64,000 nucleotides of DNA, taken from an uncultured bacterium (lineage in GTDB: Bacteria; Patescibacteriota; Minisyncoccia; Phycocordibacterales; CAIZLB01). The notes beneath the pieces are model-generated. The model was not told the origin of the DNA and ran no database searches. It was given only the letters and a program-made list of their open reading frames with translations. Of this stretch, positions 38,267-60,068 are shown piece by piece. The stretch lies in NCBI GenBank assembly GCA_903936565.1, contig CAIZVZ010000001.1, positions 95,905 to 159,904 on the forward strand. The letters run 5' to 3'. Position 1 is the stretch's first letter. The number at the start of each line of letters is the position of its first letter. The position numbers were made by a program, and so were the translations under genes.

Positions 38267-38716
38267 TCAGACAATGTTGGCTGGTGACCTGACCCTGTTT
38301 TTGTATCTTTCATACATGTCTGTAGCGCAGAATGTAATAAGGATAGTGACGGCGAGTAGGGCCGGAACAAGGAGTATTGCTGCATAACGGAACTCAAAGA
38401 CGCGGTAACCCACTTTAGCAAAACCCATCGACCACAGAAGGAGCGAAGCTCCGTTCATGATGATGGGAAGGCAGAAGTAAGTCACAAAAACCCAGAAGAA
38501 CCAACCCCCGAGCATTCGCGTCCAACGAGACTTTCGTTGTAACTGCCCCCGCTCGATCATATGCACGACTACCAGGAACAATGCCGCAACTGGAGCGATT
38601 ACTTGAGTTAGTATGTAGTTTTCAAAGCCTCCATTTGCAAGGTACGTGTAAGGTGCCGAAATGATGCCGCCAACAATGAAGTAAGCAAGCGTCAAGATAA
38701 ACTTAATGGTGATATT
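38267..38716 (-). CDS. Hypothetical polytopic membrane protein (about 4 TM helices), GC-rich
   Basis: The ORF extends to 38761 using a TTG start; the internal ATG (MNITIKF) is more plausible. It is strongly hydrophobic. At 150-165 aa with about 4 helices it is not LivM. Confidence 0.45.
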   Translation of the reverse strand, partial: NITIKFILTLAYFIVGGIISAPYTYLANGGFENYILTQVIAPVAALFLVVVHMIERGQLQRKSRWTRMLGGWFFWVFVTYFCLPIIMNGASLLLWSMGFAKVGYRVFEFRYAAILLVPALLAVTILITFCATDMYERYKNRVRSPANIV

Positions 38717-38848
38717 CATGTGTGTCTCCTTCGATTTGTGTATGGTTGAGTGTTTGTACAATTGAACCGCTTAAGTTCAACACAAATACCATACCATACA
38801 CAGCACGTTTGTAAAGGTCTACTGAATTTATTTATCACCGCCACTTAA

Positions 38849-40491: not shown

Positions 40492-40596
40492 GTGATGTTT
40501 TATTACCTATATTTTAACTTAAATTTGGGATAAATACAAAAGGCACCCATCTACATAGTTTATGTAAATCAGGTGCCGTTCTGCAGTAGTGTGACT

Positions 40597-41670
40597 TTAC
40601 TTAGGCAACATCCCATTCTCAATAACTCCAATCTTAAACTCCGGCTTTCTAACACCAACTGAATCAAATTCAATCTTTCCACTAACTCCACTTGAATTTG
40701 ATTTCAAGATGTTAGCCATCCATTTTGAATTATCAGAGCTGTAATTATTAGATAGTAGATTTACAGCATCATATCCAACGTTTCCAGTTAGTATATTTGA
40801 GTTGCCAAATCTTTTTGTATATGAGGCAACAAAGGCAGGTTCGTTGAAATTTCCAACAACCACAACCTTACTTCCGTTAAACATCTCTGGGCTCGCAATC
40901 TTCGTTGCTGACTCCCAACCATTTTGAAGATCACAATCGAAATAGTACGATACGTTCTTCATTCCTAATTCATTGAAAGTTTTAAGGAATCTTGCCATTA
41001 AGTCAGGTGTAATAACAAGGGCAACAGCATCAGGATTCAGAGCTTTAATCTTTAAAGCAAAAGTTCTAATATCTTGCTCTCCAAAATTCACAACAAACTC
41101 ATCTACATTTCCTTGATAACCCTCCTTAACACCCTTAGAAAATCTTGCAAAGACAGCGTGATTTCCTGTCACCATTACAACTTTTTGCTTTCCATCCTTT
41201 TTAATTTCTTGCCCCATTGCAACTTCACTTGCATAGTTCCCAGGATAAATTTGCAAAACATTGTCATCCTTTGGATCAAGTGATTGCTCACCGCCGTTGA
41301 TGACAGGCATTCCGTCCGCCACTACATCATTATAGATGGAATCGATAGTAATTGTATCAACTGCAATTAATACATTTATGTGATCTATACTTTTTAACTT
41401 CTTATAAGCCGACAATGACTTACCAGGGTCAAATGCTCCGTCTTCAACAATCAACTCAATTTTCTTGTCCGGATTTTTTGCTTTTATTTCCTCCACAGCA
41501 AGTAACGCACCGTTTCTAAAAGTTTCACCAACAGATGCATAGTTACCAGAGAAAGGACCAATAAGACCAATTCTCAAAACCTGATCATCCTTTTGTCCTC
41601 CACCAAATGCAAAAACCGCCACTACAACTATCACTATCGCGACCACCCAAGCAATAACTTTTTTATTCAT
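40597..41670 (-). CDS. LivK-like type-I substrate-binding protein, signal-anchored, SBP-2
   Basis: It has LRIGLIGPFSGNYASVGE ... KKIELIVEDGAFDPGKS. The ORF runs to 41748, but a start at MNKKVIAW (41670) matches the M-(K/N)-K-hydrophobic start of every other SBP in the array. Confidence 0.8.
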   Translation of the reverse strand: MNKKVIAWVVAIVIVVVAVFAFGGGQKDDQVLRIGLIGPFSGNYASVGETFRNGALLAVEEIKAKNPDKKIELIVEDGAFDPGKSLSAYKKLKSIDHINVLIAVDTITIDSIYNDVVADGMPVINGGEQSLDPKDDNVLQIYPGNYASEVAMGQEIKKDGKQKVVMVTGNHAVFARFSKGVKEGYQGNVDEFVVNFGEQDIRTFALKIKALNPDAVALVITPDLMARFLKTFNELGMKNVSYYFDCDLQNGWESATKIASPEMFNGSKVVVVGNFNEPAFVASYTKRFGNSNILTGNVGYDAVNLLSNNYSSDNSKWMANILKSNSSGVSGKIEFDSVGVRKPEFKIGVIENGMLPK

Positions 41671-41791
41671 AATTTTATCTTTTAAATAATTAATGTAATC
41701 ATTATAAACCCTCTCACAATTAAAGACATTTAATTTGTATTTTGGCAATTATGCACACAATTAGGCTATGTTTAAAGGCTTATATTATTAA

Positions 41792-41813
41792 TCAATATGT
41801 CAGGAATATTGAC
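41792..41813. promoter_or_regulatory. Inverted repeat TCAATATGTCAGGAATATTGAC (8-bp arms) in the SBP-2/TrmB divergent intergenic region; core GTCAGRAATATTGAC recurs at 43902-43916
   Basis: Palindrome read directly; it is shared with the next cassette. Confidence 0.35.
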
Positions 41814-41845
41814 ATTTTATTGATAAAGACATACAATTAATCACA

Positions 41846-42637
41846 ATGTCAAGAAAAGTAACCAAAAATCCATATCTATTTTCTGCCAATGAGAGACTAT
41901 TGTTGGCTAATATACAAAAGCACAATACCCCACTTGAATTATCTGCTGTGACCAAAATCCCCCGCCCCACCGTTTACATTACACTAGAGAAATTAGAGAT
42001 TAGAAATTTAGTACACAGCACTAAGATTTTAAAGAAAAGAAAATGGTTCTTAAATGCAAATATTGAATTGAATGATTTGATAGGTAAGGACGGAGGTACC
42101 ACAATTCATCCAGTAAGTAACCCCACCTCCCCTACTCCAGGAGTCCAGATATATACAGACAAAAAGGATATCTTTAAAGTACTCGATAGAATAAGCGCGC
42201 CATCCAAAACTCGTCTTCAGATCTTGAGTGGAGATAATATTTTGAACGACTACGACACCGCAGTTGGAAAGAATAAAATAATTGAATTCAATGAAAAGAT
42301 TAAAGCTTCAAATATTATTGTTGAGGCAATTTGCACCAGATTTGTCTTTGACACTCAAATGGTCCACTTTGGTGAGGACTGGACCGAGTCTTATATGGGA
42401 AGATCCACTGAAGTGCACACGATTAATAAAAAGTATCTAAACCACAATAGGCAGATTTTCATCTATAACAATCGTGTCTACTTTTTTATGCTAGATAGAC
42501 CTGCCATTTTAGAAGTCTCTGATTCAAACCTAGTTAAAGCATTTATGTCTATTTTTGAATTCATCAAAGACTACTCACCAAACTTTGATATGAATAGTTA
42601 CATGAAGGAAAAAATGGATAAAAACAAGAGCAAGTAA
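41846..42637 (+). CDS. TrmB-family winged-helix transcriptional regulator, R-1
   Basis: The N-terminal HTH LSAVTKIPRPTVYITLEKLEIRNLV matches the TrmB HTH pattern (xxIAxxxxIPRxxVYxxLxxLxxKGxV). It is 263 aa and divergent from SBP-2. Confidence 0.7.
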   Translation: MSRKVTKNPYLFSANERLLLANIQKHNTPLELSAVTKIPRPTVYITLEKLEIRNLVHSTKILKKRKWFLNANIELNDLIGKDGGTTIHPVSNPTSPTPGVQIYTDKKDIFKVLDRISAPSKTRLQILSGDNILNDYDTAVGKNKIIEFNEKIKASNIIVEAICTRFVFDTQMVHFGEDWTESYMGRSTEVHTINKKYLNHNRQIFIYNNRVYFFMLDRPAILEVSDSNLVKAFMSIFEFIKDYSPNFDMNSYMKEKMDKNKSK

Positions 42638-42686
42638 AAAACAGCAGGAGTTCCTACTGTTTTCCACTCTACCCTCCAGCTAAATA

Positions 42687-43778
42687 TTATTTCACTGTTA
42701 ATTCTCCATTTATAATCTCCCCTATCTTAAATTGTGGCGGCCTCATACCCACGTCATTAAATCTTATTTCTCCGGTAACGCCCATTGCTTTATATTTCTC
42801 GATATTGCTCTTCCACTTAGACTGGTCTTTATCGTATAAATTAATAGCGGTCATATAAGCGTCATATCCAAAGCCTGATAACATAGATACGTTCTGATTA
42901 AATCTAACCTTATATTTCTCTTGAAACTCCTTAGTCATCTCTGCTGCAGAGTATAGACTCTTTGAACCGTTAAGAGTACTCAGACCTCCAAGTGCATCTT
43001 TGTAATCATTAATTCCAAATTGTAGATTGATGTCAAAGTACATGTGTTTAGGCACAGCATTGAAATCTTTCAACTTACGAACAAGCTTTGCTCCATCTTT
43101 TGCCTCCATAAATATAAGTAATCCATCCGGGTTTGATTCTTTTATTTTCAGTGCAATACTACTCATATCCTTTTCTGATGTACTTATTCTCTGAATTTCA
43201 ACCTCTCCCTTATATGTTTTAGTAAAGTCAGAAACAAATTTCTCATAAGCCTTAAATTGTTGCATGGCAATTACCACCTTCTTTACCTCATCCTTGTTTG
43301 CAACATCACCCATTACCCCAATTGAAGTTTGATCAGGATATATTTGATATATGTTATCTGCGATTGGATCACTCTCCGCTCCAAGTTGAAATGTAAGCAT
43401 TCCGCTATCGTGAACATCCTTAGAGATAACATCTATTGTTGGAGATGACAGATTAATTAGCGTGTCAATTTTATTAATAGAAACTAATTTCTGATACGCT
43501 GACGCACCTTTTTTTGAGTCAAAGTTATCATCTTCAATAAATACATTTATTTTCTTTTCGGGATGTGCTTTTGCATATTCCTCCTTGGCTAAAGTGATTC
43601 CGTTAGCAAAACCCTGACCCAAGTTGTCACCTCCAGATATTAAACCTGTAAGTGAGGTTATAACACCTATATTAATTGAGTCTGCCTGCTTACCATTTGA
43701 ACCATTAAGCGATATGACGATGATGACAATTACTGCTATTGCTACCAAACCTGTTACTAATTTATTATTTTTCTTCAT
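42687..43778 (-). CDS. LivK-like type-I substrate-binding protein, signal-anchored, SBP-3
   Basis: An MKKNNKL plus TM helix start is followed by INIGVITSLTGLISGGDNLG ... KKINVFIEDDNFDSKKG. Confidence 0.8.
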   Translation of the reverse strand: MKKNNKLVTGLVAIAVIVIIVISLNGSNGKQADSINIGVITSLTGLISGGDNLGQGFANGITLAKEEYAKAHPEKKINVFIEDDNFDSKKGASAYQKLVSINKIDTLINLSSPTIDVISKDVHDSGMLTFQLGAESDPIADNIYQIYPDQTSIGVMGDVANKDEVKKVVIAMQQFKAYEKFVSDFTKTYKGEVEIQRISTSEKDMSSIALKIKESNPDGLLIFMEAKDGAKLVRKLKDFNAVPKHMYFDINLQFGINDYKDALGGLSTLNGSKSLYSAAEMTKEFQEKYKVRFNQNVSMLSGFGYDAYMTAINLYDKDQSKWKSNIEKYKAMGVTGEIRFNDVGMRPPQFKIGEIINGELTVK

Positions 43779-43901
43779 ATTTTTTAATTTATTTTTATGA
43801 CATCATTTTATGGCAATGTACAGATAGAGTCAAAGTTTATAAATATGACTAACCGATATTAGGCCTATTTATAGAGCTAATATGGTCATACATAATTGGT
43901 A

Positions 43902-43916
43902 GTCAGAAATATTGAC
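43902..43916. promoter_or_regulatory. GTCAGAAATATTGAC motif (within palindrome TAGTCA-n7-TGACTA) upstream of the R-2 start
   Basis: Same 15-mer class as 41799-41813. Confidence 0.35.
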
Positions 43917-43946
43917 TATTTTGCAAATATTGATAAAATGTTGTAT

Positions 43947-44684
43947 ATGAATGAAATACTAAAAGCACTAACGAACGCTGGCCTAAATCAAAAGGAGGCA
44001 GAAATATATCTAATTCTTTTAAAACTAAAGACTGCCACAGCCTATAAAATTGCAAAGGACTCTTCCATCAAAAAACCGACCGTGTATGTAATTCTTGAAA
44101 CACTAAGGCAAAAAGGCTTTATTCTTAAGACCCCTTCAAAGCGAGGTACGGTCTATACTGCAAAGTCCCCCGATGAATTCATCAATATTATTGAACAGAA
44201 GTTTACTAGCGTCCTCAACACCCTACCTTTACTTAAAAGTATATTTAAGGAAAGTTCAAATAATATTAATGTCTTTTATTTTGAGGGAATGAAAGGTCTA
44301 GAAGATTTATGCTATTACAGATTCGATGAGATAAATGATACCGAGATGGTTGGATTCTTTGCTAAGCCATCAACTAATTTTAAGGAATACGAAGCGTTAT
44401 TTACGAAATGGTCAAAAGATCTATTAAAAAGAAAAGTAAAAATAAGTGGAATAACCCCGGACCATCAATATATGAAAGGTCAAGTTGAAAATAACAGAGA
44501 TGCTTATCGTAATTTGAAATTAGTAGACCCGGAAAAATATTCATCAACCGTTTCCATAGATGTCTCGCTTAATTTTGTAAGAATCATGGATCTCAAGAAT
44601 CTTAATGGAGTTATAATTGAGAATACTGATTTAGCAAACGCGATTCACCAGGTGTTTGATATGGTCTGGGAGGGTCTCAAATAA
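43947..44684 (+). CDS. TrmB-family winged-helix transcriptional regulator, R-2
   Basis: It has the HTH KEAEIYLILLKLKTATAYKIAKDSSIKKPTVYVILETLRQKGFI. The ORF opens at 43896, but the likely start is MNEIL at 43947. Confidence 0.7.
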   Translation: MNEILKALTNAGLNQKEAEIYLILLKLKTATAYKIAKDSSIKKPTVYVILETLRQKGFILKTPSKRGTVYTAKSPDEFINIIEQKFTSVLNTLPLLKSIFKESSNNINVFYFEGMKGLEDLCYYRFDEINDTEMVGFFAKPSTNFKEYEALFTKWSKDLLKRKVKISGITPDHQYMKGQVENNRDAYRNLKLVDPEKYSSTVSIDVSLNFVRIMDLKNLNGVIIENTDLANAIHQVFDMVWEGLK

Positions 44685-44691
44685 TATTATA

Positions 44692-45765
44692 CTATTTAAT
44701 ATCCACAAACTTACCATCTGCAACAGTAGAGACTTGATATTGATCCTGTAAGTCACCATTGGTGTCAAAATTGATTGAGTAAGTTAGACCCGGATAATCT
44801 TTTATACCAGCTACATAATCTTTTATACACAGATTCTTGTCCCCTGTTGTACATTTATCTAGGGAAGAAATTAGTATTTTCATGGAGTCATAATTTCTAG
44901 TAGTCACATAGTTTGGAGCTTCCTTATACTTCTCCAGATATGACGTCCCAAAATCTTTATTTACCAACAGTACTGAAGGCGAAATTATAATCACACCCTC
45001 TGCGTATTGTCCCGCCATATTAATCAACTCTGGACTATAGCATGCCGATCCGCAATATATCTTCGTATTAACACCAAGCTCCCTTGCTTGTTTTACAAAA
45101 ATTCCCGCTTCCTTTCCCCATGAGGCAATAAATATCACATCCGGATTTGCGTTTTTTATTTTTATTATTTGAGATCTTAAATCAGTATCTGTTGGCAAAA
45201 AACCTTCTGATGCCACTATATTATCTTTATCAAAATTTTTAGTAAATGCATCTGCAATCCCCTTTCCATAATCATTATTAAGATAAATAACCGCTACTCT
45301 TTTTTTGCCGTCCTTTAATATCGTGCTTTTAATTGTAGACATTTCAACATCAGTTGTACCGTTTATTCTAAAAGTATAATCGTTAGGAGTTGAATACGGT
45401 GGGGCCGCTACTATACTAAATGTTGGTATTTTACTTTCATTGACTACAGGTGCAATCGCCATAGCAACTGGACTTCCAAGTGAAAATACAGCTCTAATAC
45501 TTTTATCATTTTTATATTGATTAATGATAGATATAGCCTTCTTAGCGTCTAGCTGACTATCTTCAAAAATAATCTCAAGATTCTTACCCTCTGACGCTAG
45601 CTGCAAACCTCTTTTTGCCCATTCTCCATGTTGAGAATTAGAACCACTCAAAGGAAGTATCGCAAGCACCCTATCTTTACCAGAATTATTATTCCAACCA
45701 CTGAATACGACAATAAAGACGATTATTACGATAGCGGCAATCCAGTATAATTTGTTTTTATTCAT
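44692..45765 (-). CDS. LivK-like type-I substrate-binding protein, signal-anchored, SBP-4
   Basis: An MNKNKLYW plus TM helix start is followed by LAILPLSGSNSQHGEWAKRG ... EIIFEDSQLDAKKA. Confidence 0.75.
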   Translation of the reverse strand: MNKNKLYWIAAIVIIVFIVVFSGWNNNSGKDRVLAILPLSGSNSQHGEWAKRGLQLASEGKNLEIIFEDSQLDAKKAISIINQYKNDKSIRAVFSLGSPVAMAIAPVVNESKIPTFSIVAAPPYSTPNDYTFRINGTTDVEMSTIKSTILKDGKKRVAVIYLNNDYGKGIADAFTKNFDKDNIVASEGFLPTDTDLRSQIIKIKNANPDVIFIASWGKEAGIFVKQARELGVNTKIYCGSACYSPELINMAGQYAEGVIIISPSVLLVNKDFGTSYLEKYKEAPNYVTTRNYDSMKILISSLDKCTTGDKNLCIKDYVAGIKDYPGLTYSINFDTNGDLQDQYQVSTVADGKFVDIK

Positions 45766-45865
45766 TATGTTGAAATTATACTACCTCCACATACTGAGTC
45801 AAATTACATAAATTATTTAGAATTTCTTTATAGAGGCATTATACCCTTTATTTATAATTGTCGGC

Positions 45866-46693
45866 ATGACAAAAATAAACATAAAGAATCAAGAAATTAC
45901 AATCAATTTATCAAAGATGGGAGATGATTATATATCGCTGACAGACATAGCTAGATACAAGAATCCACATGAACCGAAGGATGTGGTAAAAAACTGGATG
46001 AGAAATAAAAATACTATTGAATTTTTAGGGTTGTGGGAAAGAATAAACAACCCTCATTTTAAGGGGGTCGAATTCGACCCCCTTAAAAAAGAAGCTGGTT
46101 TAAACAGTTTTACCCTATCCCCAGAAAGATGGACCAAGCTGACTGGTGCTATTGGCGTTAAAACACTAGCTAGGCGTCACAATGGCGGGACATTTGCCCA
46201 CAAAGATATCGCTTTCGAATTTGCAAGTTGGGTATCTTCTGAATTTAAGCTGTATTTGATTAAGGAGTTCCAAAGGTTAAAAAATGAGGAGAACGATAGA
46301 CTGAATCTCGGATGGAATGTTAGGAGATTGTTAACTAAAATAAATTACAAGATACACACAGATTCCATAAAAGAAAACATAGTCATGCCTCAAAAGTTAT
46401 CTGGAAAGGATTCAATGGCGGTTTATGCCAATGAAGCCGATGTTTTAAATAAAGCCTTATTTGGTATCACAGCTAAAGAATGGAGAGATGCGAACACAAA
46501 GCTTAGAGGTAACATCAGAGACTATGCAAATATCATACAATTAGTCTGTTTAGTTAATTTAGAAAACTTGAATTCAGAATACATCAAGGAAGGACTTAGC
46601 CAAGGAGAAAGATTAATTAAGTTAAATGAAATTGCAATTCATCAGATGGGTTTACTTATAGATAATTCGGGTATCAGAAAGCTGGGCAAATAA
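45866..46693 (+). CDS. KilA-N domain-containing protein (phage/APSES-type DNA-binding domain)
   Basis: The N-terminal 150 aa match the KilA-N pattern (ISLTDIARYKNPHEP...NWMRNKNTIEFLGLWERINNPHFKG..EFD.LKKEAGLNSFTLSPERW...GGTFAHKDIAFEFASWVSSEFKLYLIKEFQRLK). It occupies the slot where the other cassettes carry a TrmB gene. Confidence 0.75.
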   Translation: MTKINIKNQEITINLSKMGDDYISLTDIARYKNPHEPKDVVKNWMRNKNTIEFLGLWERINNPHFKGVEFDPLKKEAGLNSFTLSPERWTKLTGAIGVKTLARRHNGGTFAHKDIAFEFASWVSSEFKLYLIKEFQRLKNEENDRLNLGWNVRRLLTKINYKIHTDSIKENIVMPQKLSGKDSMAVYANEADVLNKALFGITAKEWRDANTKLRGNIRDYANIIQLVCLVNLENLNSEYIKEGLSQGERLIKLNEIAIHQMGLLIDNSGIRKLGK

Positions 46694-46761
46694 GTGTCAA
46701 ATTTTAAGTAGGTTAAATTAGGTCAGTTTAAAGGGTTCTATTTAAGCCTCTTTAAAACCAC

Positions 46762-46794
46762 AAAAAACAGCGGATGAAATCCGCTGTTTTTTTA
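46762..46794. terminator. Bidirectional intrinsic terminator ACAGCGGAT-gaa-ATCCGCTGT followed by TTTTTTT
   Basis: Perfect 9-bp stem flanked by an A-run and a T-run, between convergent genes. Confidence 0.7.
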
Positions 46795-46814
46795 TATCAA
46801 TAATCTCAAACTCT

Positions 46815-47882
46815 CTACTCCTCCAGCTTCACAAACTTCCCATCCTTGAATATGTGTAGCTCGTACGCAGCTGGTCTTGTTCCTTGGTTATCAAAGGAAA
46901 CTCTTCCTGACACACCATCAAAATTTGTTTTAGCCACCACTGATTTCCAATCTTTCTTAGGAACACCTCCTAGCTTCTTAATGATTTCTGCAGAGTCATA
47001 AGCATAATCACTTATGAACAATGGATCGTAACCGTACTTGGCCTTAAATGCATCTTTGAAGCTCTGTGTAGTGTCTGATGGAAGATTAGCTGATATACAT
47101 CCCTGTAGCATCTTATCGCTTCCTAACGCCTTAATATAATCTCCAACAACAAACTCTATATTAGCATCACATATCACTGAAACATTCTTTGAACCCTTTT
47201 GTTCTCCAAGAGTCTTAAGTAATTTAATGCCAGTATCCTTATCAACAATCACCGTCATAGCATCTGGATTGAACGCAAGTATCTTCGCAACTTCTGTTCT
47301 CAGGTCTCCATTTGGAGCAATATTAAAATCCTCTGTAATTACATTTTGACCCAAAGCCTTTTTGAAGTATTCAGCGTCAGTCTTAAATATATCTAAGCTC
47401 CCACTGTATACCACAGCAATTCTACTGTATCTTTTTGAAGCCTCTTTTCCAACAGCACTAAAGATTGGATAACTGAATGGTATTGTTTGGAAAACCGTAT
47501 CATCTTTCTTTGTATTAGATTCAGTTAAGTGAAAAGTTAAAATTTGATCTTTTTCAATTAGAGCCTGATTAGCATCCAATGACGGACTATCAACATTTAT
47601 TATCACATCCACCTTATCGATTGAAGTTAACTTTTGATAAGCAGAAACTGCTTTCTTTGGATCAAATGCATCATCCTCAAACACAACCTGTATATTTGAA
47701 TCCTTTTCGAAACTCATTAAAATTGAATTTCGAATACTTTCACCAAGAGCTCCGTATTGTCCGGACATTGGCGCTATGACACCAACTTTAATTTTTCCAC
47801 TTGGCTTTTCTTTTGACGAATATGCAACCGCTGTCAAGATTATCGCTATTACAACTATTCCTATAATTATTTTTTTCCTCAT
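46815..47882 (-). CDS. LivK-like type-I substrate-binding protein, signal-anchored, SBP-5
   Basis: It has IKVGVIAPMSGQYGALGE ... VVFEDDAFDPKKA, and the C-terminus ends ELHIFKDGKFVKLEE. Confidence 0.8.
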   Translation of the reverse strand: MRKKIIIGIVVIAIILTAVAYSSKEKPSGKIKVGVIAPMSGQYGALGESIRNSILMSFEKDSNIQVVFEDDAFDPKKAVSAYQKLTSIDKVDVIINVDSPSLDANQALIEKDQILTFHLTESNTKKDDTVFQTIPFSYPIFSAVGKEASKRYSRIAVVYSGSLDIFKTDAEYFKKALGQNVITEDFNIAPNGDLRTEVAKILAFNPDAMTVIVDKDTGIKLLKTLGEQKGSKNVSVICDANIEFVVGDYIKALGSDKMLQGCISANLPSDTTQSFKDAFKAKYGYDPLFISDYAYDSAEIIKKLGGVPKKDWKSVVAKTNFDGVSGRVSFDNQGTRPAAYELHIFKDGKFVKLEE

Positions 47883-48065
47883 AAATTTAATTTGATTATT
47901 ATCTATTAAATTAACTGTTAATTTCTGATGTCAAAATTATAAAACAGATGCTGTGAGTTGTAAAAAGTAAGGTCATTTTCATAAGCACTTCCAAATAGTC
48001 CTTTATATACAAAGTATTTTATAATATATATTGACTAAAAGTTCGACATAATATACTATTTAAAC

Positions 48066-48911
48066 ATGAAAATAAGCAAGGAGAATGCGGAAATACTTGG
48101 TTTATCAAAGGCGGAGCTTTCTATTATCGATAGCCTAGAAGCAAAGGACTCCAAACACAAAGACCTCTCCATCATCAATATATCAAAAGAAACTGGCATC
48201 CCCCGCACTTCCCTGTACTATATGCTACCTAAATTAGAAAAACGTGGTTTTATTGAAATTAAAAGAAATAACAAGAAAATATTCTGGCGAAAAAGCAGGG
48301 ATGAAGATTTTCAAAAGAAATTCTTGAGAACAATTGAAGACATTACCGAGAATAAAATTACTCACCACTCCCCCACCTCGAACAACAACCACATAAAAGT
48401 GCTTTATGGTACAGATCAGCTTTCAACAGTCTTTGATGAGATCACCGCCCTGCCTAGCAGAACTAGAGTTTTTGCTATTCAACCGGACCTATCAATTCTA
48501 GATGTGATCAAGAAACTACCTATTAAAAAATCAATAGCGGTCTGTGACGGTATTAAAAGTAAACATCTCATAATGGATGGAATAGTACATGAAAAATCTA
48601 TTGATTCCATAAAAGGCTCACTTAGTGACAAAAGAGTTACGAAGGAATTACTCAGCAGCTTCGGAGGAAGATCTGCTGATATGGCTAAAATGCCAGATAA
48701 CTTTCTGCCTACCACCCACGCTGAAACATATCTTTATGAAGATAAGGTTACGCTATTGAATTGGGATAAAGAAATAGCGGTCATTATAAAAGATAAGGAC
48801 ATATTCCAACTTATCAAGGAAATGTTTAATTCCACAAAATATCTAATGGAGAGATACGATCAGAATGAGAAGATTGCGAGAAGATTGGTAGATTTAGAAA
48901 AACTACATTAG
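48066..48911 (+). CDS. TrmB-family winged-helix transcriptional regulator, R-3
   Basis: It has the HTH ELSIIDSLEAKDSKHKDLSIINISKETGIPRTSLYYMLPKLEKRGFI. Its C-terminus is nearly identical to that of R-7 (60069-60920). Confidence 0.7.
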   Translation: MKISKENAEILGLSKAELSIIDSLEAKDSKHKDLSIINISKETGIPRTSLYYMLPKLEKRGFIEIKRNNKKIFWRKSRDEDFQKKFLRTIEDITENKITHHSPTSNNNHIKVLYGTDQLSTVFDEITALPSRTRVFAIQPDLSILDVIKKLPIKKSIAVCDGIKSKHLIMDGIVHEKSIDSIKGSLSDKRVTKELLSSFGGRSADMAKMPDNFLPTTHAETYLYEDKVTLLNWDKEIAVIIKDKDIFQLIKEMFNSTKYLMERYDQNEKIARRLVDLEKLH

Positions 48912-48944
48912 AATCAAGATATATAAACGAGGGTGGTTTTTATA

Positions 48945-50012
48945 TTAGAACTCCGTTACCTCTAAATAATCCTTTCTTGAAACAACATCCCCATTTGACT
49001 GGAATTTATATGATGTCATTGCCCCGTCGATTCCAGCTAGAGCTTTATTCTTTAAAAGCTTGACCCTGTCACTGTCCACAACCTCAACACCATCAAGTGA
49101 CTTATCAATAAAGTTCAAGACATCAAATGTAACAGCATTATAGAAAGGATACGTTGGCTCATGTCTATATTTCATTTTAAAATCAGAAATATACTTATTA
49201 TATCCATCACTCTTTAGTACTGTTTTTAGACATTGTCCATGAATATCAAATTTGGAAATCATAGATAATTTATCACAGACATTAACATCTCCAAGAATTT
49301 TATTACTTATTCCAAGCTCCCCCATTTCCCCTAGGATAATTTTAGTAGCACCATCAGCGACTGGTATAAAAATTATTTCATCGTATTTCAAATCCTTTAG
49401 TTTCGAAAGTTCACTCCTATAACTTACCGCATCTGACGCATAAGTAATCCTTGAAACTATTTGACTACCAACCTGACTTATCAAGAAATCACCTGCAGAT
49501 TGTGAATAATCTTGCTTTTCATGCATTAAGACATATTTTTGGTCTGGATTTTGCTTCACAATATTTACAAGATTTTCAGAAATAGAAAGTCCATCTGGAA
49601 TAAATCGAATAACCTCGTCCCCCGTTTTTCTAATTTCAATTGAACCACCAAAACCTGTCATAATTACATTTCCATCTTCTTTAACAACAGGAGCAAGAGC
49701 AAGGATACTTCCACTACACGCAACGACATACACCTTAATACCCTGAGATTTTAAAATATTATAAGCAGACAATGCGCCCTTTCCAGTACATTGATCATCT
49801 TGTGCCACAAACTGTATATTTTTTGCGCGCTCACCATACATCTTTACTGATTTCTGTAAATCGTCAGTAATAGATGCGGCTGGACCAGTTAAAGGCATAA
49901 TTAATCCTACCTTTATCTTTTCTCCATCATTTTTATTAGCAAAGGCAAAGACAATGCCTAGCACAATTACAATTAGTAGTACCAATATCCACTTAAAATT
50001 ATTGTTTTTCAT
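48945..50012 (-). CDS. LivK-like type-I substrate-binding protein, signal-anchored, SBP-6
   Basis: The likely start is MKNNNFKWILVLL at 50012. It has IKVGLIMPLTGPAASI ... FVAQDDQCTGKGA. Confidence 0.75.
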   Translation of the reverse strand: MKNNNFKWILVLLIVIVLGIVFAFANKNDGEKIKVGLIMPLTGPAASITDDLQKSVKMYGERAKNIQFVAQDDQCTGKGALSAYNILKSQGIKVYVVACSGSILALAPVVKEDGNVIMTGFGGSIEIRKTGDEVIRFIPDGLSISENLVNIVKQNPDQKYVLMHEKQDYSQSAGDFLISQVGSQIVSRITYASDAVSYRSELSKLKDLKYDEIIFIPVADGATKIILGEMGELGISNKILGDVNVCDKLSMISKFDIHGQCLKTVLKSDGYNKYISDFKMKYRHEPTYPFYNAVTFDVLNFIDKSLDGVEVVDSDRVKLLKNKALAGIDGAMTSYKFQSNGDVVSRKDYLEVTEF

Positions 50013-50120
50013 AATGTCTAATATTATACAACAGCACAGGATTGTGTACAAAATAATAGACTATTACTTCACGGGACTTGATTTTATCCTTATATTACTA
50101 TATATTATCGATTATAAATT

Positions 50121-50897
50121 ATGTCTATAATGGTAAACAAATTAAAGGAGAGAGATTTAAAGAAGCGTCTCATGGATGACGCTGGTTTTTCTGATAAGAA
50201 GGCGGCAATTTATATGTCTATATTAAAACTAGGTGAAGCAACCTCAAATGAAATCGCCAAGAGTGCTAATATAAAAAGGACCACTGTGTACAATATCCTA
50301 CCAGAACTTTTAAAAGAGGGTGTCGTTCGTAAAACCAAGAGACTGAAGAAAACTTTATTCTACATTGAAGACACAAGCGATTTAGTATCGAGACTTGATG
50401 AAAAGAGATTTGGTATTGAAGAAATTCTCCCTGACCTCAACAGCCTGCAAATGTCTAATAGGTCCAAACCTAAAGTCGTTCAATACGAAGGGCAAAATGG
50501 TATCATACAACTTTATAAAGATTTACTTAATTCAATTCCTGTTGGAGGAGAGCTACTTTCCGTAATTGGCGCCAACTACGCAAAGGACTTAATGCCGTAT
50601 CATATACTTGAATACTATTCAGATTTTAGATTAAAGAAGAAAATAAGACACAGACTAATTGGCACAAATAATGATTTCATAAAGGAATTTAAAGCAAAGG
50701 ATAAAGACCAATATCGAGAAACGAGGATTCTAGAGGAAGGAAACGAATTGATTGGTTCAGATATTAGAATTTTTGGTAACAAAGTTGCAATGCTCTCTTT
50801 TAAAGAAGGCTTCATTGGTGTAATTATAGAAAGTGAGGATTTACATAAGCTAAACAAGGTAATGTTTGAGAGAGTCTGGAATACTTTGAAGGCGTAA
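50121..50897 (+). CDS. TrmB-family winged-helix transcriptional regulator, R-4
   Basis: It has the HTH KKAAIYMSILKLGEATSNEIAKSANIKRTTVYNILPELLKEGVV. Confidence 0.7.
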   Translation: MSIMVNKLKERDLKKRLMDDAGFSDKKAAIYMSILKLGEATSNEIAKSANIKRTTVYNILPELLKEGVVRKTKRLKKTLFYIEDTSDLVSRLDEKRFGIEEILPDLNSLQMSNRSKPKVVQYEGQNGIIQLYKDLLNSIPVGGELLSVIGANYAKDLMPYHILEYYSDFRLKKKIRHRLIGTNNDFIKEFKAKDKDQYRETRILEEGNELIGSDIRIFGNKVAMLSFKEGFIGVIIESEDLHKLNKVMFERVWNTLKA

Positions 50898-50922
50898 AAC
50901 ACCCCATCTACCTAGCCAGCAA

Positions 50923-51806: not shown

Positions 51807-52760
51807 ATGAAAACTCCCACAGGTGAATACAAACCCAACGCGGCTGAAAACCTTGAACAAGAGGACAATCGAGAATGGCAAGAAGGAAGAGAAAGATATA
51901 GGTCTGTCGAAAAGGCCTTAAAGAGATGCTGTACTGTAAATGAGATAAAATTTAGACTCAGAAAGGCGATTGGGGCTGTTAGTAATTTTTACAACATTGA
52001 ATCAGGCAAGAGATTTTCTCAATCACTTCCACAGGGCAGCCACGACACCCTTCCTTTTGAAATGCTATACATTGGAGAGAGACCTGCTGTCTTGACCAGT
52101 CTAGCTCTAACTGATGAGATTATGGAACAAATGAAAGCCGACGGTCTTGAGTTTTTTGATACGGACCCTGAGAGATTGGTAGAAAACTTCATATTTAATA
52201 GACAAAAATTAGAAACTATATATTCAGAAGATGAAGTATTGCAAGAATACGGAGACAGTGTTGATGATGTATTAAGTAAAATAAAAGCAGAGCGCGCTGA
52301 ACGAATACAAAGAGCGGGAGCTTGGGTTGATTATTCTTATCAATACCACTATGCACTTGGATCCTTTTTAGGATACCCCAAAGATGATGTTGCTGAATTT
52401 TCATTTATCCATTCAAAAGTACAATGGTTCATTAATACTTTTGTTGATTCCGTTGTAAATGATTACGCAAGTAGAGGCGAGGAATTAGGTGATATTGAAG
52501 GTAGATTATTTGGAGCGGAGAGTGATGATGTTATTGATTTCCTAATTGCCAACCTAGAGCGTTTTGATTTCCCAGAAGAATCACAAAAAGAAATTTATGC
52601 AAAACTATTAGACAAGATTAAGAGACAAAAATTAGTACACATTGGAGATCTGGTGTTTTCTTCAAGTGAAGAGGGTCATAATCTAGATGAAATAAAAAAT
52701 AGAAGAATTAAGGCTTTCAAATTTATGGGGCACAATGTAGACAAGATGAGTATAAATTAA
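51807..52760 (+). CDS. Hypothetical cytoplasmic protein (317 aa), no recognisable domain
   Basis: Long clean ORF with acidic, helix-rich composition, embedded inside the SBP/TrmB array. Confidence 0.5.
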   Translation: MKTPTGEYKPNAAENLEQEDNREWQEGRERYRSVEKALKRCCTVNEIKFRLRKAIGAVSNFYNIESGKRFSQSLPQGSHDTLPFEMLYIGERPAVLTSLALTDEIMEQMKADGLEFFDTDPERLVENFIFNRQKLETIYSEDEVLQEYGDSVDDVLSKIKAERAERIQRAGAWVDYSYQYHYALGSFLGYPKDDVAEFSFIHSKVQWFINTFVDSVVNDYASRGEELGDIEGRLFGAESDDVIDFLIANLERFDFPEESQKEIYAKLLDKIKRQKLVHIGDLVFSSSEEGHNLDEIKNRRIKAFKFMGHNVDKMSIN

Positions 52761-57561: not shown

Positions 57562-58668
57562 TTATTTTACCTCCTCGTAATTTCCCTTTCCGAGAATCTT
57601 GAATAATCCCGCTTGAGACTTATTTGGATTAATATTAGTTCCCGATGTAAAATCTATATTTCCATCGACGCTTTCATATTTAACCTTCTTTAGTCCAGCC
57701 AGTAAATCATTGGGGCTATTTTCATATGCCTTGGCAATAGATCTAATTAGCTCGTAACTATTTTGAGCTTCCAGCACAGGATATTTACCATACTTATTCT
57801 TATATTTTGATGCAAATTCTTGATTAGGTCTCCAATCTATAACAAAGACATTTTTTAGTTGCTCCAAACTAACTGAATCTGAGTTTTCAAAACCATCAAC
57901 TAAATTACTATCCACTAAAATAGGGATATTGACTCCAAGATTTTTTAAGGTCTTCACAGCTCTATCTCCCCAACCAACCACCAGTATTACGTCTGGATTA
58001 GCTGCCTTCATTTTCACTGCCTCAATTCTATAGTCAACCATAAAGTCACCACTGCATGTTTCGGCAACAATCTTTATTCCTCTCTCCTTAGCTACATCCT
58101 CATAAGCTTTTGTAAATGCCACACCCCATGTGTTAGCATTCCAACAAATTATACCCACTGTTTTTGCTGATGGATTAACATCGAAGAACTTTTCAATAGC
58201 ACCCTTAATACTTGATGTAGTGTGACCCATTGTGAAGAAATATGTGCTTGTTCCCTCTACTGAATTATCCATAACTGTTGGAGAAATTGTTACTATCTTA
58301 TTTGATTCAGAAAGAGGAACCAATGGATTAGACAAAAATGCCCAAACATCAGATATCATCACATCAACCTTATCTACATTGACCAACTTGTGAAAGGATG
58401 ACACATCCTTTGAGGGATTACTTTGACTATCTTCATATATAACTTGAATTGGGCGGCCATTAACCCCTCCTTTTGAATTGATCTCTTCAACAGCCATTTC
58501 AGCTCCATTTTTAGCAGATTCTGACCAGAAGGCAGCTGCTCCAGTCAAGGAAAGTGTTGCTCCAACTTTAATAGGACCGCCCTTAGCTTTTCCATAATTC
58601 TGAGACAGACCAACCCCGACCAGAATGATGATTATTAATGCAATAATTACCCATATTTTTGTTTTCAT
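57562..58668 (-). CDS. LivK-like type-I substrate-binding protein, signal-anchored, SBP-9
   Basis: It has IKVGATLSLTGAAAFWSE ... GGVNGRPIQVIYEDSQSNPSKD. The likely start is MKTKIWVII. Confidence 0.8.
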   Translation of the reverse strand: MKTKIWVIIALIIIILVGVGLSQNYGKAKGGPIKVGATLSLTGAAAFWSESAKNGAEMAVEEINSKGGVNGRPIQVIYEDSQSNPSKDVSSFHKLVNVDKVDVMISDVWAFLSNPLVPLSESNKIVTISPTVMDNSVEGTSTYFFTMGHTTSSIKGAIEKFFDVNPSAKTVGIICWNANTWGVAFTKAYEDVAKERGIKIVAETCSGDFMVDYRIEAVKMKAANPDVILVVGWGDRAVKTLKNLGVNIPILVDSNLVDGFENSDSVSLEQLKNVFVIDWRPNQEFASKYKNKYGKYPVLEAQNSYELIRSIAKAYENSPNDLLAGLKKVKYESVDGNIDFTSGTNINPNKSQAGLFKILGKGNYEEVK

Positions 58669-58775
58669 AACTATATTAAAGCATATGCAGATATTCATCT
58701 CAAGCAAAAAACCAACCGCCTTCCGGCTGTTGGTTTTTCACATAATCACACTTTAAAATAAGTCCGTCTTTCAAA

Positions 58776-59867
58776 CTACTTATCAAACTTCACAAACTTT
58801 CCATCTTTAAAGATATGTAGTTCACTTACCAAGGTTCTCGAACCAGTCTTGTCGAAGGTTATCTTTCCAGACATTCCTTCTATTGATAGTCCGTCCCTTT
58901 CGAGTGCCGACTTCCAATCCTTCTTATTTGTACTAGCAAGAACCTTTCCTATAACTTGTACCGCATCATATCCATAAACTCCAAGGAAGTTTGGTTCTGA
59001 ATTGTAGGCCGCCTTATATCTTTGTAGATAATCTTTGCTTGTGTTGTCAGCAATCATTGTTGATAGACATCCTTCAAACGAACTATTGGTCAAGCCTTTT
59101 TTAAGATAGTCACCAATTGAAAGTTCAATGTTTCCATCACAAATTATTTGAGGCTTAGCACCTTTTGATTGCTTATTAACTTCGTTGATAAACTTAACAC
59201 CTTGATCAACTCCCAAGAAAACTGTGTATGAGTCAACTCCTTGATCAAGCATCTTTGAAACCTCCGTTCTAACGTCAGAGTTTGATGATACAGGAACCTC
59301 AATGTAGTCTTGATTATTCATTCCTTGAATCATCATATTCTTGTTTGTCATGAAGAGTTGCGAGTCTGATGCGTAAACAATTGCAACCTTCTTATACTTT
59401 CCAGAAACTTCCTTTCCTAAAGTTTTGAACAACTCTGTTGCCCAAGGTATTACTTCAAAGACATTGTCTTTCTCAACCGCAGATTCGTTACCAACAGTTA
59501 ACATCAACTCATCTGTTTGATTAATCTTTGGTTTAAGAACCTCAAGTGTTGGGCTTACAAGACCAACAACGATATCTACATTATCAACTGATTGTAATTT
59601 GTTGTATGCAGAAAGTGCTTTTGCTGAATCGTATTGATCGTCTTCAAATACAAGCTCAATATTATTATTTTTCAAATCTTTCAAGCTCATTTCCATTGAA
59701 TTTTTTACGCTTTCACCAAATGATGCGTATTGACCTGAAAGAGGTAGAACAACTCCAACCTTTATTTTGTTATTTGCCACTGGCTTGCTGCCGTTACTGT
59801 AAGATACAGTTCCCACAACAATCAGTATCAGAACCAATACCCCAATAATTATTTTTTTGTTTTTCAT
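58776..59867 (-). CDS. LivK-like type-I substrate-binding protein, signal-anchored, SBP-10 (tandem with SBP-9)
   Basis: It has IKVGVVLPLSGQYASFGE ... ELVFEDDQYDSAKA. The C-terminus ELHIFKDGKFVKFDK is nearly identical to that of SBP-5. Confidence 0.8.
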   Translation of the reverse strand: MKNKKIIIGVLVLILIVVGTVSYSNGSKPVANNKIKVGVVLPLSGQYASFGESVKNSMEMSLKDLKNNNIELVFEDDQYDSAKALSAYNKLQSVDNVDIVVGLVSPTLEVLKPKINQTDELMLTVGNESAVEKDNVFEVIPWATELFKTLGKEVSGKYKKVAIVYASDSQLFMTNKNMMIQGMNNQDYIEVPVSSNSDVRTEVSKMLDQGVDSYTVFLGVDQGVKFINEVNKQSKGAKPQIICDGNIELSIGDYLKKGLTNSSFEGCLSTMIADNTSKDYLQRYKAAYNSEPNFLGVYGYDAVQVIGKVLASTNKKDWKSALERDGLSIEGMSGKITFDKTGSRTLVSELHIFKDGKFVKFDK

Positions 59868-60068
59868 GTGATTTTGCGAAATCATGTCGCGCCTCCGTCC
59901 ATATGGCGCGACTCTGATTGATTAATTTTTAATAACTAAATTATGTAACAATTATGGAGTATTGTAAAATATGGTATTTTATGCACATGACACATATTCT
60001 ATCACTATATACAGCCCTATATTCCATATCGCTTGACGGAATTTCCGACAAAGTGGTATAGTTAACAC

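What the first reader, a model, noticed from the sequence alone, without database searches (positions are those of the whole stretch)
44692..46693. A KilA-N domain gene occupies the regulator slot of one SBP cassette
In one cassette (SBP-4, 44692-45765) the divergently transcribed partner is not a TrmB-like gene. It is a 275-aa protein with a clear KilA-N (APSES-like) DNA-binding domain, a domain typical of phage and mobile-element proteins. Its position, orientation and spacing match the TrmB genes in the other cassettes. This suggests module swapping of the DNA-binding partner, or a phage-derived gene inserted into the array. Either is unusual and bears on how the array evolves.
Basis: partly seen in the sequence, partly recalled or inferred. 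Interest (0 to 1): 0.6.

Follow-up and report, generated by a model that had tools for sequence, protein, structure and literature searches.

The report
Stand-alone KilA-N gene, not a regulator swap
The KilA-N gene beside this binding-protein gene is an independent, widely travelled candidate phage-defence gene that has long sat at this spot, not a replacement regulator, and its coding sequence hides a strongly conserved 32-base palindrome that also occurs on its own in phage genomes.

Summary
A 275-aa KilA-N protein (45866-46693, +) lies 100 bp from, and divergent to, an intact substrate-binding-protein gene (SBP-4, 44692-45765, -), inside an array of SBP/TrmB pairs.

The "regulator slot" reading does not hold.
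- The protein is a full-length member of PADLOC candidate defence family PDC-S22 (E 7e-121). At least 595 bacterial and archaeal species carry it at 56-68% identity, often next to restriction-modification genes.
- In two close relatives the gene keeps SBP_d downstream, but a co-oriented TrmB gene, not SBP-4, lies upstream.
- Three SBP-4 orthologues elsewhere have no divergent TrmB upstream.
- No TrmB remnant exists in either flanking spacer.
- SBP-4 has its own near-consensus promoter, and the KilA-N gene has its own conserved upstream box and terminator.
- KilA-N GC content and divergence match its neighbours, so it is an old resident, not a recent phage insertion.

One thing was unexpected. 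Codons 64-75 form a perfect 32-nt palindrome (46057-46088). Across 87 homologues it is kept by compensatory codon changes (14.1 of 16 symmetric positions in 83 loci, against 8.4 expected). Copies without the gene are common in viral contigs. Its function is unknown. I found no description of it.

The parts
45866..46693 (+). KilA-N / PDC-S22 family gene (275 aa): N-terminal KilA-N domain, a long helix (residues 125-158) and a C-terminal helical bundle (161-274)
   Evidence: Pfam PF04383 E 1.8e-20. PADLOC PDLC04962 PDC-S22 E 7e-121, full length. PHROG 2657 E 5e-52. AlphaFold model with pLDDT 89.9. Foldseek matches to phage KilA-N proteins at probability 1.0.
46057..46088 (.). Perfect 32-nt palindrome TTTTAAGGGGGTCGAATTCGACCCCCTTAAAA inside the ORF (codons 64-75, HFKGVEFDPLKK; predicted helix 67-76)
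   Evidence: Conserved with compensatory changes in 87 homologues. As RNA it folds at -25.7 kcal/mol, z = -5.3.
45808..45865 (+). The KilA-N gene's own upstream region, with the conserved box TTTAGAATTTCTTTATAGAGGC at 45816-45837 (probable promoter or operator)
   Evidence: Nucleotide homology to L004/L005, which have an unrelated context, starts at 45808. The same box lies upstream of the gene in L005 and L091 and at the end of contig L089.
46700..46735 (.). Decayed second copy of the palindrome just after the stop codon. It is intact in L004/L005 as TTTAAACTGGTCGAATTCGACCAGTTTAAA.
46762..46792 (.). Terminator-like hairpin with A-run/T-run flanks (probably bidirectional) between the KilA-N gene and the convergent SBP_d gene
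   Evidence: the scan called it on the - strand (14-bp stem followed by a T run).
44692..45765 (-). SBP-4: an intact membrane-anchored LivJ-type substrate-binding protein. It is the variable neighbour.
   Evidence: Pfam Peripla_BP_6 E 2.3e-41. Orthologues in L089 (76%), L087 (68%) and L090 (78%, truncated) sit in other contexts. It is absent from the KilA-N flank in L091 and in the P0004 contig.
45775..45802 (-). SBP-4's own sigma-70-like promoter (TTGACT-16-TATAAT, 11 of 12), outside the KilA-N homology block
   Evidence: This is a consensus match only.

Best explanation
The gene at 45866-46693 is an autonomous, self-contained transcription unit with its own upstream box, ORF and terminator. 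It belongs to a very large, very conserved, horizontally spread single-gene family: KilA-N domain plus helical C-terminal domain, catalogued as PADLOC candidate defence family PDC-S22 and PHROG 2657. It is not a substitute for a TrmB regulator and is not functionally tied to SBP-4. In this lineage it is a long-standing resident of a rearrangement-prone stretch of the branched-chain-type ABC transporter locus. Its downstream neighbour (SBP_d with Trm_d) is conserved among relatives. Its upstream neighbour changes, and in this genome it happens to be SBP-4, which carries its own promoter. The divergent, regulator-like geometry is therefore a by-product of SBP cassette shuffling. These steps are shown. 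The following steps are inferred. The protein is a dimeric sequence-specific DNA-binding protein whose cognate site is the palindrome TTTAA-N5-TCGAATTCGA-N5-TTAAA. One copy of this site is built into its own coding sequence, and free copies occur in phage genomes. By binding such sites the protein would act on invading or resident phage DNA (exclusion or defence), and the in-gene copy would serve self-recognition or autoregulation, much as the aba element does for the KilA-N protein BstA.
For: Family membership: PDC-S22 E 7e-121 over the full length, PHROG 2657 and Pfam KilA-N. Spread: more than 8000 clusters at 90% identity and at least 595 GTDB species, including archaea, at 56-68% identity. 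Neighbours: there is no constant partner. Recurrent neighbours are DNA methylases, HsdM, ResIII, RhuM, Bro-N, ORF6N, a PLD nuclease and type I-E Cas genes. [quoted passage not shown] In phage EW and in Streptococcus satellites the gene lies between the lysogeny module and the integrase. Autonomy: homology to the unrelated-context locus L004/L005 covers 45808-46735 only. SBP-4 has its own promoter at 45802-45775, and a terminator-like hairpin lies at 46762-46792. Residency: window versus L091 shows 72-80% nt identity in the flanks and 76% in KilA-N. Window versus L006 shows 75-87% in the flanks and 83% in KilA-N. GC is 0.351 against 0.335-0.365 in the neighbours. Variable 5' neighbour: SBP-4 in the window, Trm_i in L091, a 262-aa TrmB in the P0004 contig, a response-regulator-like gene in L006 and an unknown 178-aa ORF in L089. 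SBP-4 orthologues lack a divergent TrmB. Palindrome: 14.07 of 16 symmetric positions in 83 loci against 8.43 with the same protein and random synonymous codons. In 87 loci, 92.5% of cells are paired against 79.5% shuffled, with 156 double-change cells against 47 (0 of 500 shuffles reach either). Nine perfectly complementary classes of the variable 4 bp occur. Glu69 is always GAA and Phe70 always TTC. Free copies in viral contigs: at least 120 loci against 17 and 0 for two control cores.
Against: No experiment exists for any PDC-S22 member, so a defence role rests on guilt by association. In this window the gene is not embedded in any defence system. DNA binding to the palindrome is not shown. 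Covariation at non-conserved positions, and the excess of G-U over A-C mismatches on the sense strand (62 against 21), would suit an RNA or single-strand hairpin equally well. The direction of the SBP-4 event (gain here or loss in relatives) is not resolved. One relative (the P0004 contig) could be compared only by gene order and lengths. The C-terminal domain has no informative structural match (best PDB hit DdrC, E 7e-3, TM 0.34-0.40).
Confidence: 0.7

Rival explanations
1. Regulator swap. The KilA-N protein has taken over the role of a lost TrmB and controls SBP-4 from the shared 100-bp divergent spacer.
For: The divergent orientation and the 100-bp spacing match the other SBP/TrmB pairs. 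The protein has a DNA-binding domain.
Against: The adjacency is confined to this lineage. SBP-4 orthologues have no divergent regulator elsewhere. There is no TrmB remnant. The spacer has no inverted repeat and no copy of the family palindrome. The KilA-N upstream box is the same in unrelated contexts. There is no similarity to any TrmB paralogue.
Confidence: 0.04
2. Recent insertion of a phage or prophage fragment into the array.
For: KilA-N domains are common in phages. Homologues occur in Staphylococcus phage EW and in Streptococcus satellites. A roughly 930-bp block (45808-46735) is shared with a locus of unrelated context.
Against: No integrase or phage gene was seen in the Pfam-scanned part of the window, about 36-64 kb. 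The only tRNA is 41 kb away. GC and GC3 are native. The gene keeps the same downstream neighbour in relatives, with the same divergence as the flanking genes. There is no significant flanking direct repeat, only one 8-mer at chance level. The family is present in only 17 of 50,697 phage records.
Confidence: 0.06
3. About the palindrome: it acts as a hairpin in the mRNA or in single-stranded DNA, for example to throttle translation, to mark an RNA processing site or to stabilise the transcript. It is not a duplex protein-binding site.
For: Compensatory changes occur at positions whose sequence is not conserved. G-U pairs are tolerated on the sense strand: GGG/TCC 11 times, TTT/AGA about 35 times, and 62 G-U against 21 A-C overall. 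The fold is very stable. Free copies in S. pyogenes prophages and in L004/L005 and L091 lie in transcribed 3' positions just after stop codons.
Against: The central AATT, which would be the loop, is invariant and self-complementary, with synonymous sites fixed (GAA never GAG, TTC never TTT). This points to sequence-specific, two-fold symmetric recognition. Free copies in phages are less well paired than the coding ones and often have arms of two different types. That is the opposite of what a pure hairpin requirement predicts. No Rfam family matches.
Confidence: 0.3
4. About the palindrome: it is a recombination site or a selfish palindromic element that was fixed in-frame in an ancestral KilA-N gene and still mediates mosaic exchange.
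For: Hybrid arm combinations and their reciprocals occur in viral contigs. In Streptococcus prophages the left arm differs while the right arm and downstream sequence are conserved. N-terminal gene fragments lie directly upstream of full genes, and one ends at residue 70 (L014). The palindrome class is poorly tied to the phylogeny of the C-terminal 200 aa (43 changes against 60 for random labels). Two free copies of other types lie upstream of the gene in L091.
Against: No recombinase is consistently linked. The encoded helix 67-76 is modelled with high confidence and is part of the conserved domain. No element termini or target duplications were defined.
Confidence: 0.15

Closest known systems
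PADLOC phage-defence candidate PDC-S22 (Payne et al., bioRxiv 10.1101/2024.01.29.577857)
   Same: Full-length HMM match at E 7e-121. It is a single-gene unit. Many homologues lie next to methylase, HsdM or ResIII genes.
   Different: Here the gene is not embedded in an RM, BREX or DISARM system. It sits in an ABC-transporter SBP/TrmB array of a probable Patescibacteria genome. The family's anti-phage activity has never been tested.
BstA with its aba element (Owen et al. 2021, PMC8585504)
   Same: A single KilA-N-domain protein carried as an accessory gene near the lysogeny module. A short cis DNA element lies inside its own gene, and the element varies together with the protein variant.
   Different: There is no sequence match to a PADLOC BstA model at E <= 1. 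aba is 63 bp, overlaps the gene start and has terminal direct repeats, so it is not a palindrome. BstA is known from Gram-negative prophages. The function of the palindrome here is untested.
Phage and satellite KilA-N 'transcriptional regulators' (PHROG 2657; Staphylococcus phage EW ORF014; Streptococcus satellite Javan588)
   Same: 46-56% identity over the full length, and the palindrome is retained (14-15 of 16 positions).
   Different: Those copies sit between the repressor and integrase of mobile elements. The window copy is chromosomal, with no mobile-element genes nearby.
TrmB-family regulators of the same array (PF01978)
   Same: Similar size (258-283 aa), a DNA-binding N-terminus, and a position divergent from an SBP gene.
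   Different: No TrmB or winged-helix match and no similarity to any paralogue. Each TrmB stays with its SBP as a unit in relatives. The KilA-N gene does not stay with SBP-4.
Rickettsia palindromic elements inside protein-coding genes (from my own knowledge: Ogata et al. 2000)
   Same: A palindromic nucleotide element that is translated as part of a protein.
   Different: RPEs are 100-150 bp repeats scattered over many genes of one genome. Here a 32-bp element sits at one fixed codon position of one gene family across phyla, with free copies in phages.

Membership tests
KilA-N domain (Pfam PF04383) | HMM score above the gathering threshold | tested here: met
   73.2 bits against a cut-off of 23.8, E 1.8e-20, residues 6-140.
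KilA-N domain (Pfam PF04383) | Alpha/beta N-terminal fold shared with phage KilA-N proteins | tested here: met
   Model pLDDT 89.9. Foldseek BFVD hits to KilA-N proteins of Nodularia, Winogradskyella and Ralstonia phages at probability 1.0.
PADLOC PDC-S22 | Full-length match to model PDLC04962 | tested here: met
   E 7.2e-121, residues 3-273 on profile positions 6-273 of 281.
PADLOC PDC-S22 | Genetic embedding in, or adjacency to, RM, BREX or DISARM systems (the basis on which the family was nominated) | tested here: not met
   In the window the neighbours are SBP, TrmB and ABC-transporter genes. The feature is met in part of the homologues: methylase in 8 loci, HsdM in 6 and ResIII in 6 of 77.
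PADLOC PDC-S22 | Protection against phage | not testable with these tools
   The source paper lists the 145 PDC systems as untested.
TrmB-type partner of an SBP cassette | TrmB winged-helix domain (PF01978), or homology to the array's TrmB-like paralogues | tested here: not met
   No PF01978 hit. BLASTP against all window TrmB paralogues gave E >= 1.6.
TrmB-type partner of an SBP cassette | Co-inheritance with its SBP as a unit in related genomes | tested here: not met
   The pairs SBP_b/Trm_b, SBP_d/Trm_d, SBP_f/Trm_f, SBP_i/Trm_i and SBP_j/Trm_j travel together. KilA-N and SBP-4 do not.
BstA abortive-infection family | Sequence membership (PADLOC BstA model) | tested here: not met
   Only PDC-S22 was reported at E <= 1.
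BstA abortive-infection family | A cognate cis DNA immunity element within the gene | tested here: inconclusive
   A conserved in-gene palindrome exists and varies in classes. Its role is unknown, and its form differs from aba.
Prophage or integrated mobile element | Integrase or phage genes, att repeats, deviating composition | tested here: not met
   None were found in the Pfam-scanned part of the window, about 36-64 kb. GC is native. There is no significant flanking repeat.

The most novel reading that the evidence does not exclude
The 32-bp palindrome TTTAA-N5-TCGAATTCGA-N5-TTAAA is the cognate nucleic-acid target of the PDC-S22 KilA-N proteins. Free copies in phage genomes, for example just upstream of the scaffold and capsid genes of Streptococcus pyogenes prophages, would be what the protein recognises to block or hijack phage development. 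The copy written into the protein's own coding sequence would be a self-recognition or autoregulatory element that co-varies with the protein. That would be a palindromic, pan-prokaryotic counterpart of BstA/aba, and a rare case of a binding site and part of its binding domain being encoded by the same nucleotides.
Probability: 0.3. Interest if true: 0.8.

Novelty: new member of a known kind. Interest (0 to 1): 0.45.

Why it matters
The question asked was how the SBP/TrmB array evolves. The answer is ordinary but useful. The array changes by shuffling whole SBP or SBP-TrmB units around fixed landmarks, and a look-alike "regulator slot" can arise by chance next to an unrelated resident gene.

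The larger value lies in the by-product. PDC-S22 is one of the most widespread untested candidate defence genes. It carries a family-wide palindrome held in place at the codon level, and that palindrome also exists free in phage genomes. This gives a concrete, cheap experimental handle on its mechanism: bind, mutate and challenge. It is also a clean example of nucleic-acid selection overriding codon usage across bacteria and archaea.

Tried and rejected
- **First structure model.** AlphaFold with 25 close homologues gave pLDDT 55.7, and the fold search on it was meaningless. A 149-sequence alignment that included a 42%-identical subfamily fixed this.
- **TrmB remnant.** tblastn of the window TrmB paralogues against both spacers found none.
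- **Target-site duplication around 45808-46735.** Only an 8-mer at chance level was found.
- **Operator-like repeats in the SBP-4/KilA-N spacer.** None were found.
- **Extra palindrome copies in the window.** None were found.
- **Frameshift site.** I considered a -1 frameshift at UUUAAAC plus hairpin and rejected it. The heptamer is out of frame and overlaps the stem.
- **Intrinsic terminator.** I considered this role for the in-gene palindrome and rejected it. Only 2-3 U follow the stem, and in phage 315.4 a separate terminator follows the element.
- **PADLOC scan of unknown neighbouring ORFs.** It found nothing.
- **A correction to my own reading.** I first read the L091 upstream pair as SBP_b/Trm_b. 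BLASTP corrected it to SBP_i/Trm_i.
- **Literature.** No paper links KilA-N to a palindrome, and the core sequence turned up only in cloning primers.
Full report
**1. Observation**

The window holds, from 40597 to 63734, an array of LivJ-type substrate-binding-protein genes (Peripla_BP_6). Most are paired divergently with TrmB-like genes of 258-283 aa. The array is interspersed with two ABC ATPase genes and one permease gene.

100 bp away, on the other strand, 45866-46693 encodes a 275-aa protein whose residues 6-140 match Pfam KilA-N (E 1.8e-20, 73.2 bits against a 23.8 cut-off).

The spacer is only 100 bp, and 58 bp of it belong to the KilA-N gene's own conserved upstream region. tblastn with the window's TrmB paralogues finds nothing in either flanking spacer.

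**2. What the protein is**

- It matches PADLOC model PDC-S22 over its whole length (E 7e-121) and PHROG 2657 "transcriptional regulator" (E 5e-52).
- It has no NCBIfam or PDB sequence relative.
- PDC families are single- or multi-gene "phage defence candidates". They were nominated because they are found embedded in BREX, DISARM or type I RM systems. The 145 listed are untested.
- The family is huge and remarkably conserved. More than 8000 clusters were found. At least 595 GTDB species carry a full-length copy at 56-68% identity. These span Patescibacteria, Proteobacteria, Bacteroidota, Firmicutes, Chloroflexi, Nitrospirota and Campylobacterota, and the archaea Methanoregula, Methanocella and Nanoarchaeota.
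- With a 149-sequence alignment AlphaFold gives a confident model (pLDDT 89.9). It shows an N-terminal alpha/beta KilA-N domain, a long helix (125-158) and a helical bundle (161-274).
- Foldseek finds phage KilA-N proteins of the same overall architecture. In the PDB it finds only a weak resemblance to the dimeric DNA-binding protein DdrC. The C-terminal domain is thus a helical domain without an assignable function. I infer that it mediates dimerisation.

**3. Context of homologues**

In 77 GTDB loci there is no universal partner gene. The recurrent neighbours are DNA methylases, HsdM, ResIII helicases, RhuM, Bro-N and ORF6N proteins, a PLD nuclease and a type I-E Cas cluster.

In Staphylococcus phage EW and in Streptococcus satellites the gene lies between the repressor module and the integrase. 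On a Xenorhabdus plasmid it lies near a Qat system.

The full-length family is rare in phage records (17 of 50,697) and in plasmid records (27 of 72,556). It is mainly a chromosomal accessory gene of the defence-neighbourhood type.

**4. Is it a regulator swap?**

No. The evidence comes from several directions.

- *Closest homologues.* The 89%-identical copy (L004/L005) lies among pilin-like and glycosyltransferase genes. Homology to the window covers only 45808-46735. The 88%-identical copy (L006) comes from a relative with 75-87% nt identity in syntenic genes. There it lies between the same two ABC ATPase genes as in the window, but with no SBP next to it.
- *Close relatives.* Two further contigs come from close relatives that share PriA or LepA clusters at 90% identity.
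  - L091 has SBP_i<->Trm_i -> KilA-N <- SBP_d<->Trm_d.
  - The P0004 contig has SBP(363 aa)<->TrmB(262 aa) -> KilA-N <- SBP(354 aa).
  - In both, SBP-4 is not next to KilA-N.
  - The 3' neighbour of KilA-N (SBP_d) is therefore conserved, while the 5' neighbour varies.
- *SBP-4 orthologues.* They occur elsewhere in three arrangements.
  - In L087 it is the second gene behind SBP_j.
  - In L090 it lies behind a hemB-like gene.
  - In L089 it lies behind an unknown 178-aa ORF. There the contig end carries the KilA-N upstream box, so KilA-N probably follows.
  - None has a divergent TrmB upstream.
- *Pair inheritance.* The true SBP/TrmB pairs are inherited as units. KilA-N and SBP-4 are not.
- *Separate units.* SBP-4 has its own near-consensus promoter at 45802-45775, outside the KilA-N block. 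A terminator-like hairpin closes the KilA-N unit at 46762-46792.
- *Residency.* GC content (0.351) and nucleotide divergence from relatives equal those of the neighbours. There is no integrase, no nearby tRNA and no significant flanking repeat.

The gene is therefore an old resident, and the slot-like geometry is a coincidence of cassette shuffling. Whether SBP-4 was gained here or lost in the relatives is not resolved.

**5. The unexpected feature**

BLAST of the locus against relatives showed a 32-nt perfect palindrome inside the ORF: 46057-46088, TTTTAAGGGGGTCGAATTCGACCCCCTTAAAA, codons 64-75. It is 100% conserved in copies that are otherwise 81-83% identical.

*Conservation in the gene family.*
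- In 83 loci from many phyla the same codon positions form a near-perfect palindrome. On average 14.07 of 16 positions are symmetric, against 8.43 expected when the same proteins are recoded with random synonymous codons. Only 0.4% of resamples reach the observed value.
- The arms change together: codons 68/71 are GTC/GAC, ATC/GAT or CTC/GAG, and codons 67/72 are CCC/GGG, GGG/CCC, GTT/AAC, TCC/GGA, CTG/CAG, TGT/ACA or CGT/ACG. Amino acids at positions 67-68 and 71-72 therefore co-vary because of nucleotide complementarity.
- On an 87-sequence alignment 92.5% of cells pair, against 79.5% after shuffling. 156 cells show double changes, against 47. No shuffle out of 500 reaches either value, and slid controls reach at most 65%.
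- Symmetry stops sharply at position 16 from the centre.
- Glu69 is always GAA and Phe70 always TTC, whatever the genome.
- The feature persists in phage EW, in satellites, on a plasmid and in a 42-46%-identical subfamily. In one of these (Javan97) the core itself shows a compensatory change, TTGGAA|TTCCAA.
- Rfam has no such family. I found no paper that describes it.

*Free copies.*
- Copies outside the ORF lie next to the gene in relatives. L091 has two of other variant types upstream. L004/L005 have one just after the stop codon, and the window has a decayed version of that at 46700-46735.
Two control cores gave 17 and 0 loci.
- Only 34 of the 122 sites lie in a KilA-N gene. The other 88 are in loci with no homologue and are mostly non-coding.
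- In S. pyogenes prophages the element sits right after a small ORF, ahead of a terminator and the scaffold and capsid genes. The left arm differs between phages while the right arm is conserved.

**6. Mechanism**

*Shown.* The gene is an autonomous unit of the PDC-S22 family, and its neighbourhood with SBP-4 is not conserved.

*Inferred for the protein.* It is a dimeric DNA-binding protein that acts on phage or mobile DNA.

*Inferred for the palindrome.* I favour a two-fold symmetric protein-binding site for three reasons. The self-complementary centre is invariant and its synonymous sites are fixed. The core holds two TCGA motifs. Free sites in phages are less hairpin-like than the coding ones. 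As I recall, the yeast KilA-N/APSES relative Xbp1 binds a TCGA core, but this is a lead from memory and was not tested.

A sense-strand hairpin remains a serious rival. Covariation occurs at non-conserved positions, G-U mismatches outnumber A-C by 62 to 21, and the fold is -25.7 kcal/mol.

So does a recombination or selfish-element origin. Hybrid arms occur in viral contigs. Gene fragments lie upstream of full genes, and one ends at the palindrome centre. Palindrome classes are poorly tied to the C-terminal phylogeny.

**7. Verdict**

The reported adjacency is real but ordinary. It bears on array evolution only in showing that SBP units move around a resident accessory gene. The gene is a new member of a known, untested candidate defence family. 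The embedded palindrome and its free copies in phages are, as far as I could find, undescribed. They are the part worth experimental follow-up.

The organism is probably a freshwater Patescibacteria bacterium. This is an inference from three things: low GC, the closest named homologues being Taylorbacteria and Moranbacteria, and the lake-metagenome contig names. No marker gene was checked.

Noticed in passing
window 46057-46088 (and the same codon positions in L004-L096): A perfect 32-nt palindrome lies inside the KilA-N ORF. It is conserved family-wide by compensatory codon changes, and the codons GAA|TTC at its centre never vary.
   Followed up: yes
L097-L216 (IMG/VR); L217:3021-3052 (S. pyogenes prophage 315.4); L218:3021-3052 (Javan456): Free copies of the same palindrome occur in viral contigs that lack the KilA-N gene (88 of 122 sites). 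They are mostly intergenic and often have arms of two different variant types. Control cores gave 17 and 0 loci against at least 120.
   Followed up: partly
L091:9859-9928; L004:10834-10870; window 46700-46735: Extra non-coding palindromes of other variant types lie next to the KilA-N gene in relatives: two upstream in L091 and one after the stop codon in L004/L005. The window keeps only a decayed copy after the stop codon.
   Followed up: partly
L014:5001-5147, L040:5001-5321, L065:5001-5219, L081:55-350: Partial KilA-N gene fragments lie directly upstream of full-length copies. The L014 fragment ends at residue 70, which is the palindrome centre.
   Followed up: no
window 40597-63734: The array holds 11 SBP and 9 TrmB-like genes. 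Paralogues compared here are only about 22-42% identical, while orthologous SBP-TrmB pairs are 60-98% identical in relatives and travel as units. The array is therefore ancient, and it evolves by reordering rather than by recent tandem duplication.
   Followed up: partly
window 57562-58707 and 58776-59885: Two SBP genes lie in tandem behind one TrmB gene (60069-60920). Not every SBP has its own regulator. L087 shows the same layout for the SBP-4 orthologue behind SBP_j.
   Followed up: partly
window 40492-50922, compared with L006:2428-5412, L090:10505-11125 and L087/L091: The interval between the two ABC ATPase genes is highly variable among relatives. It, or its surroundings, holds PycTM-domain, MazEF, NYN-domain and response-regulator-like genes, so it behaves like an accessory or defence island inside a transporter locus.
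   Followed up: partly
L090:6080-6694: The SBP-4 orthologue in one relative is truncated to 204 aa and follows a delta-aminolevulinate dehydratase (ALAD) gene.
   Followed up: no
window 51807-52760, 61043-61534, 38267-38761: Three ORFs of 317, 163 and 164 aa have no significant Pfam or PADLOC match (one weak DUF3793 hit only). They lie within or beside the array.
   Followed up: partly
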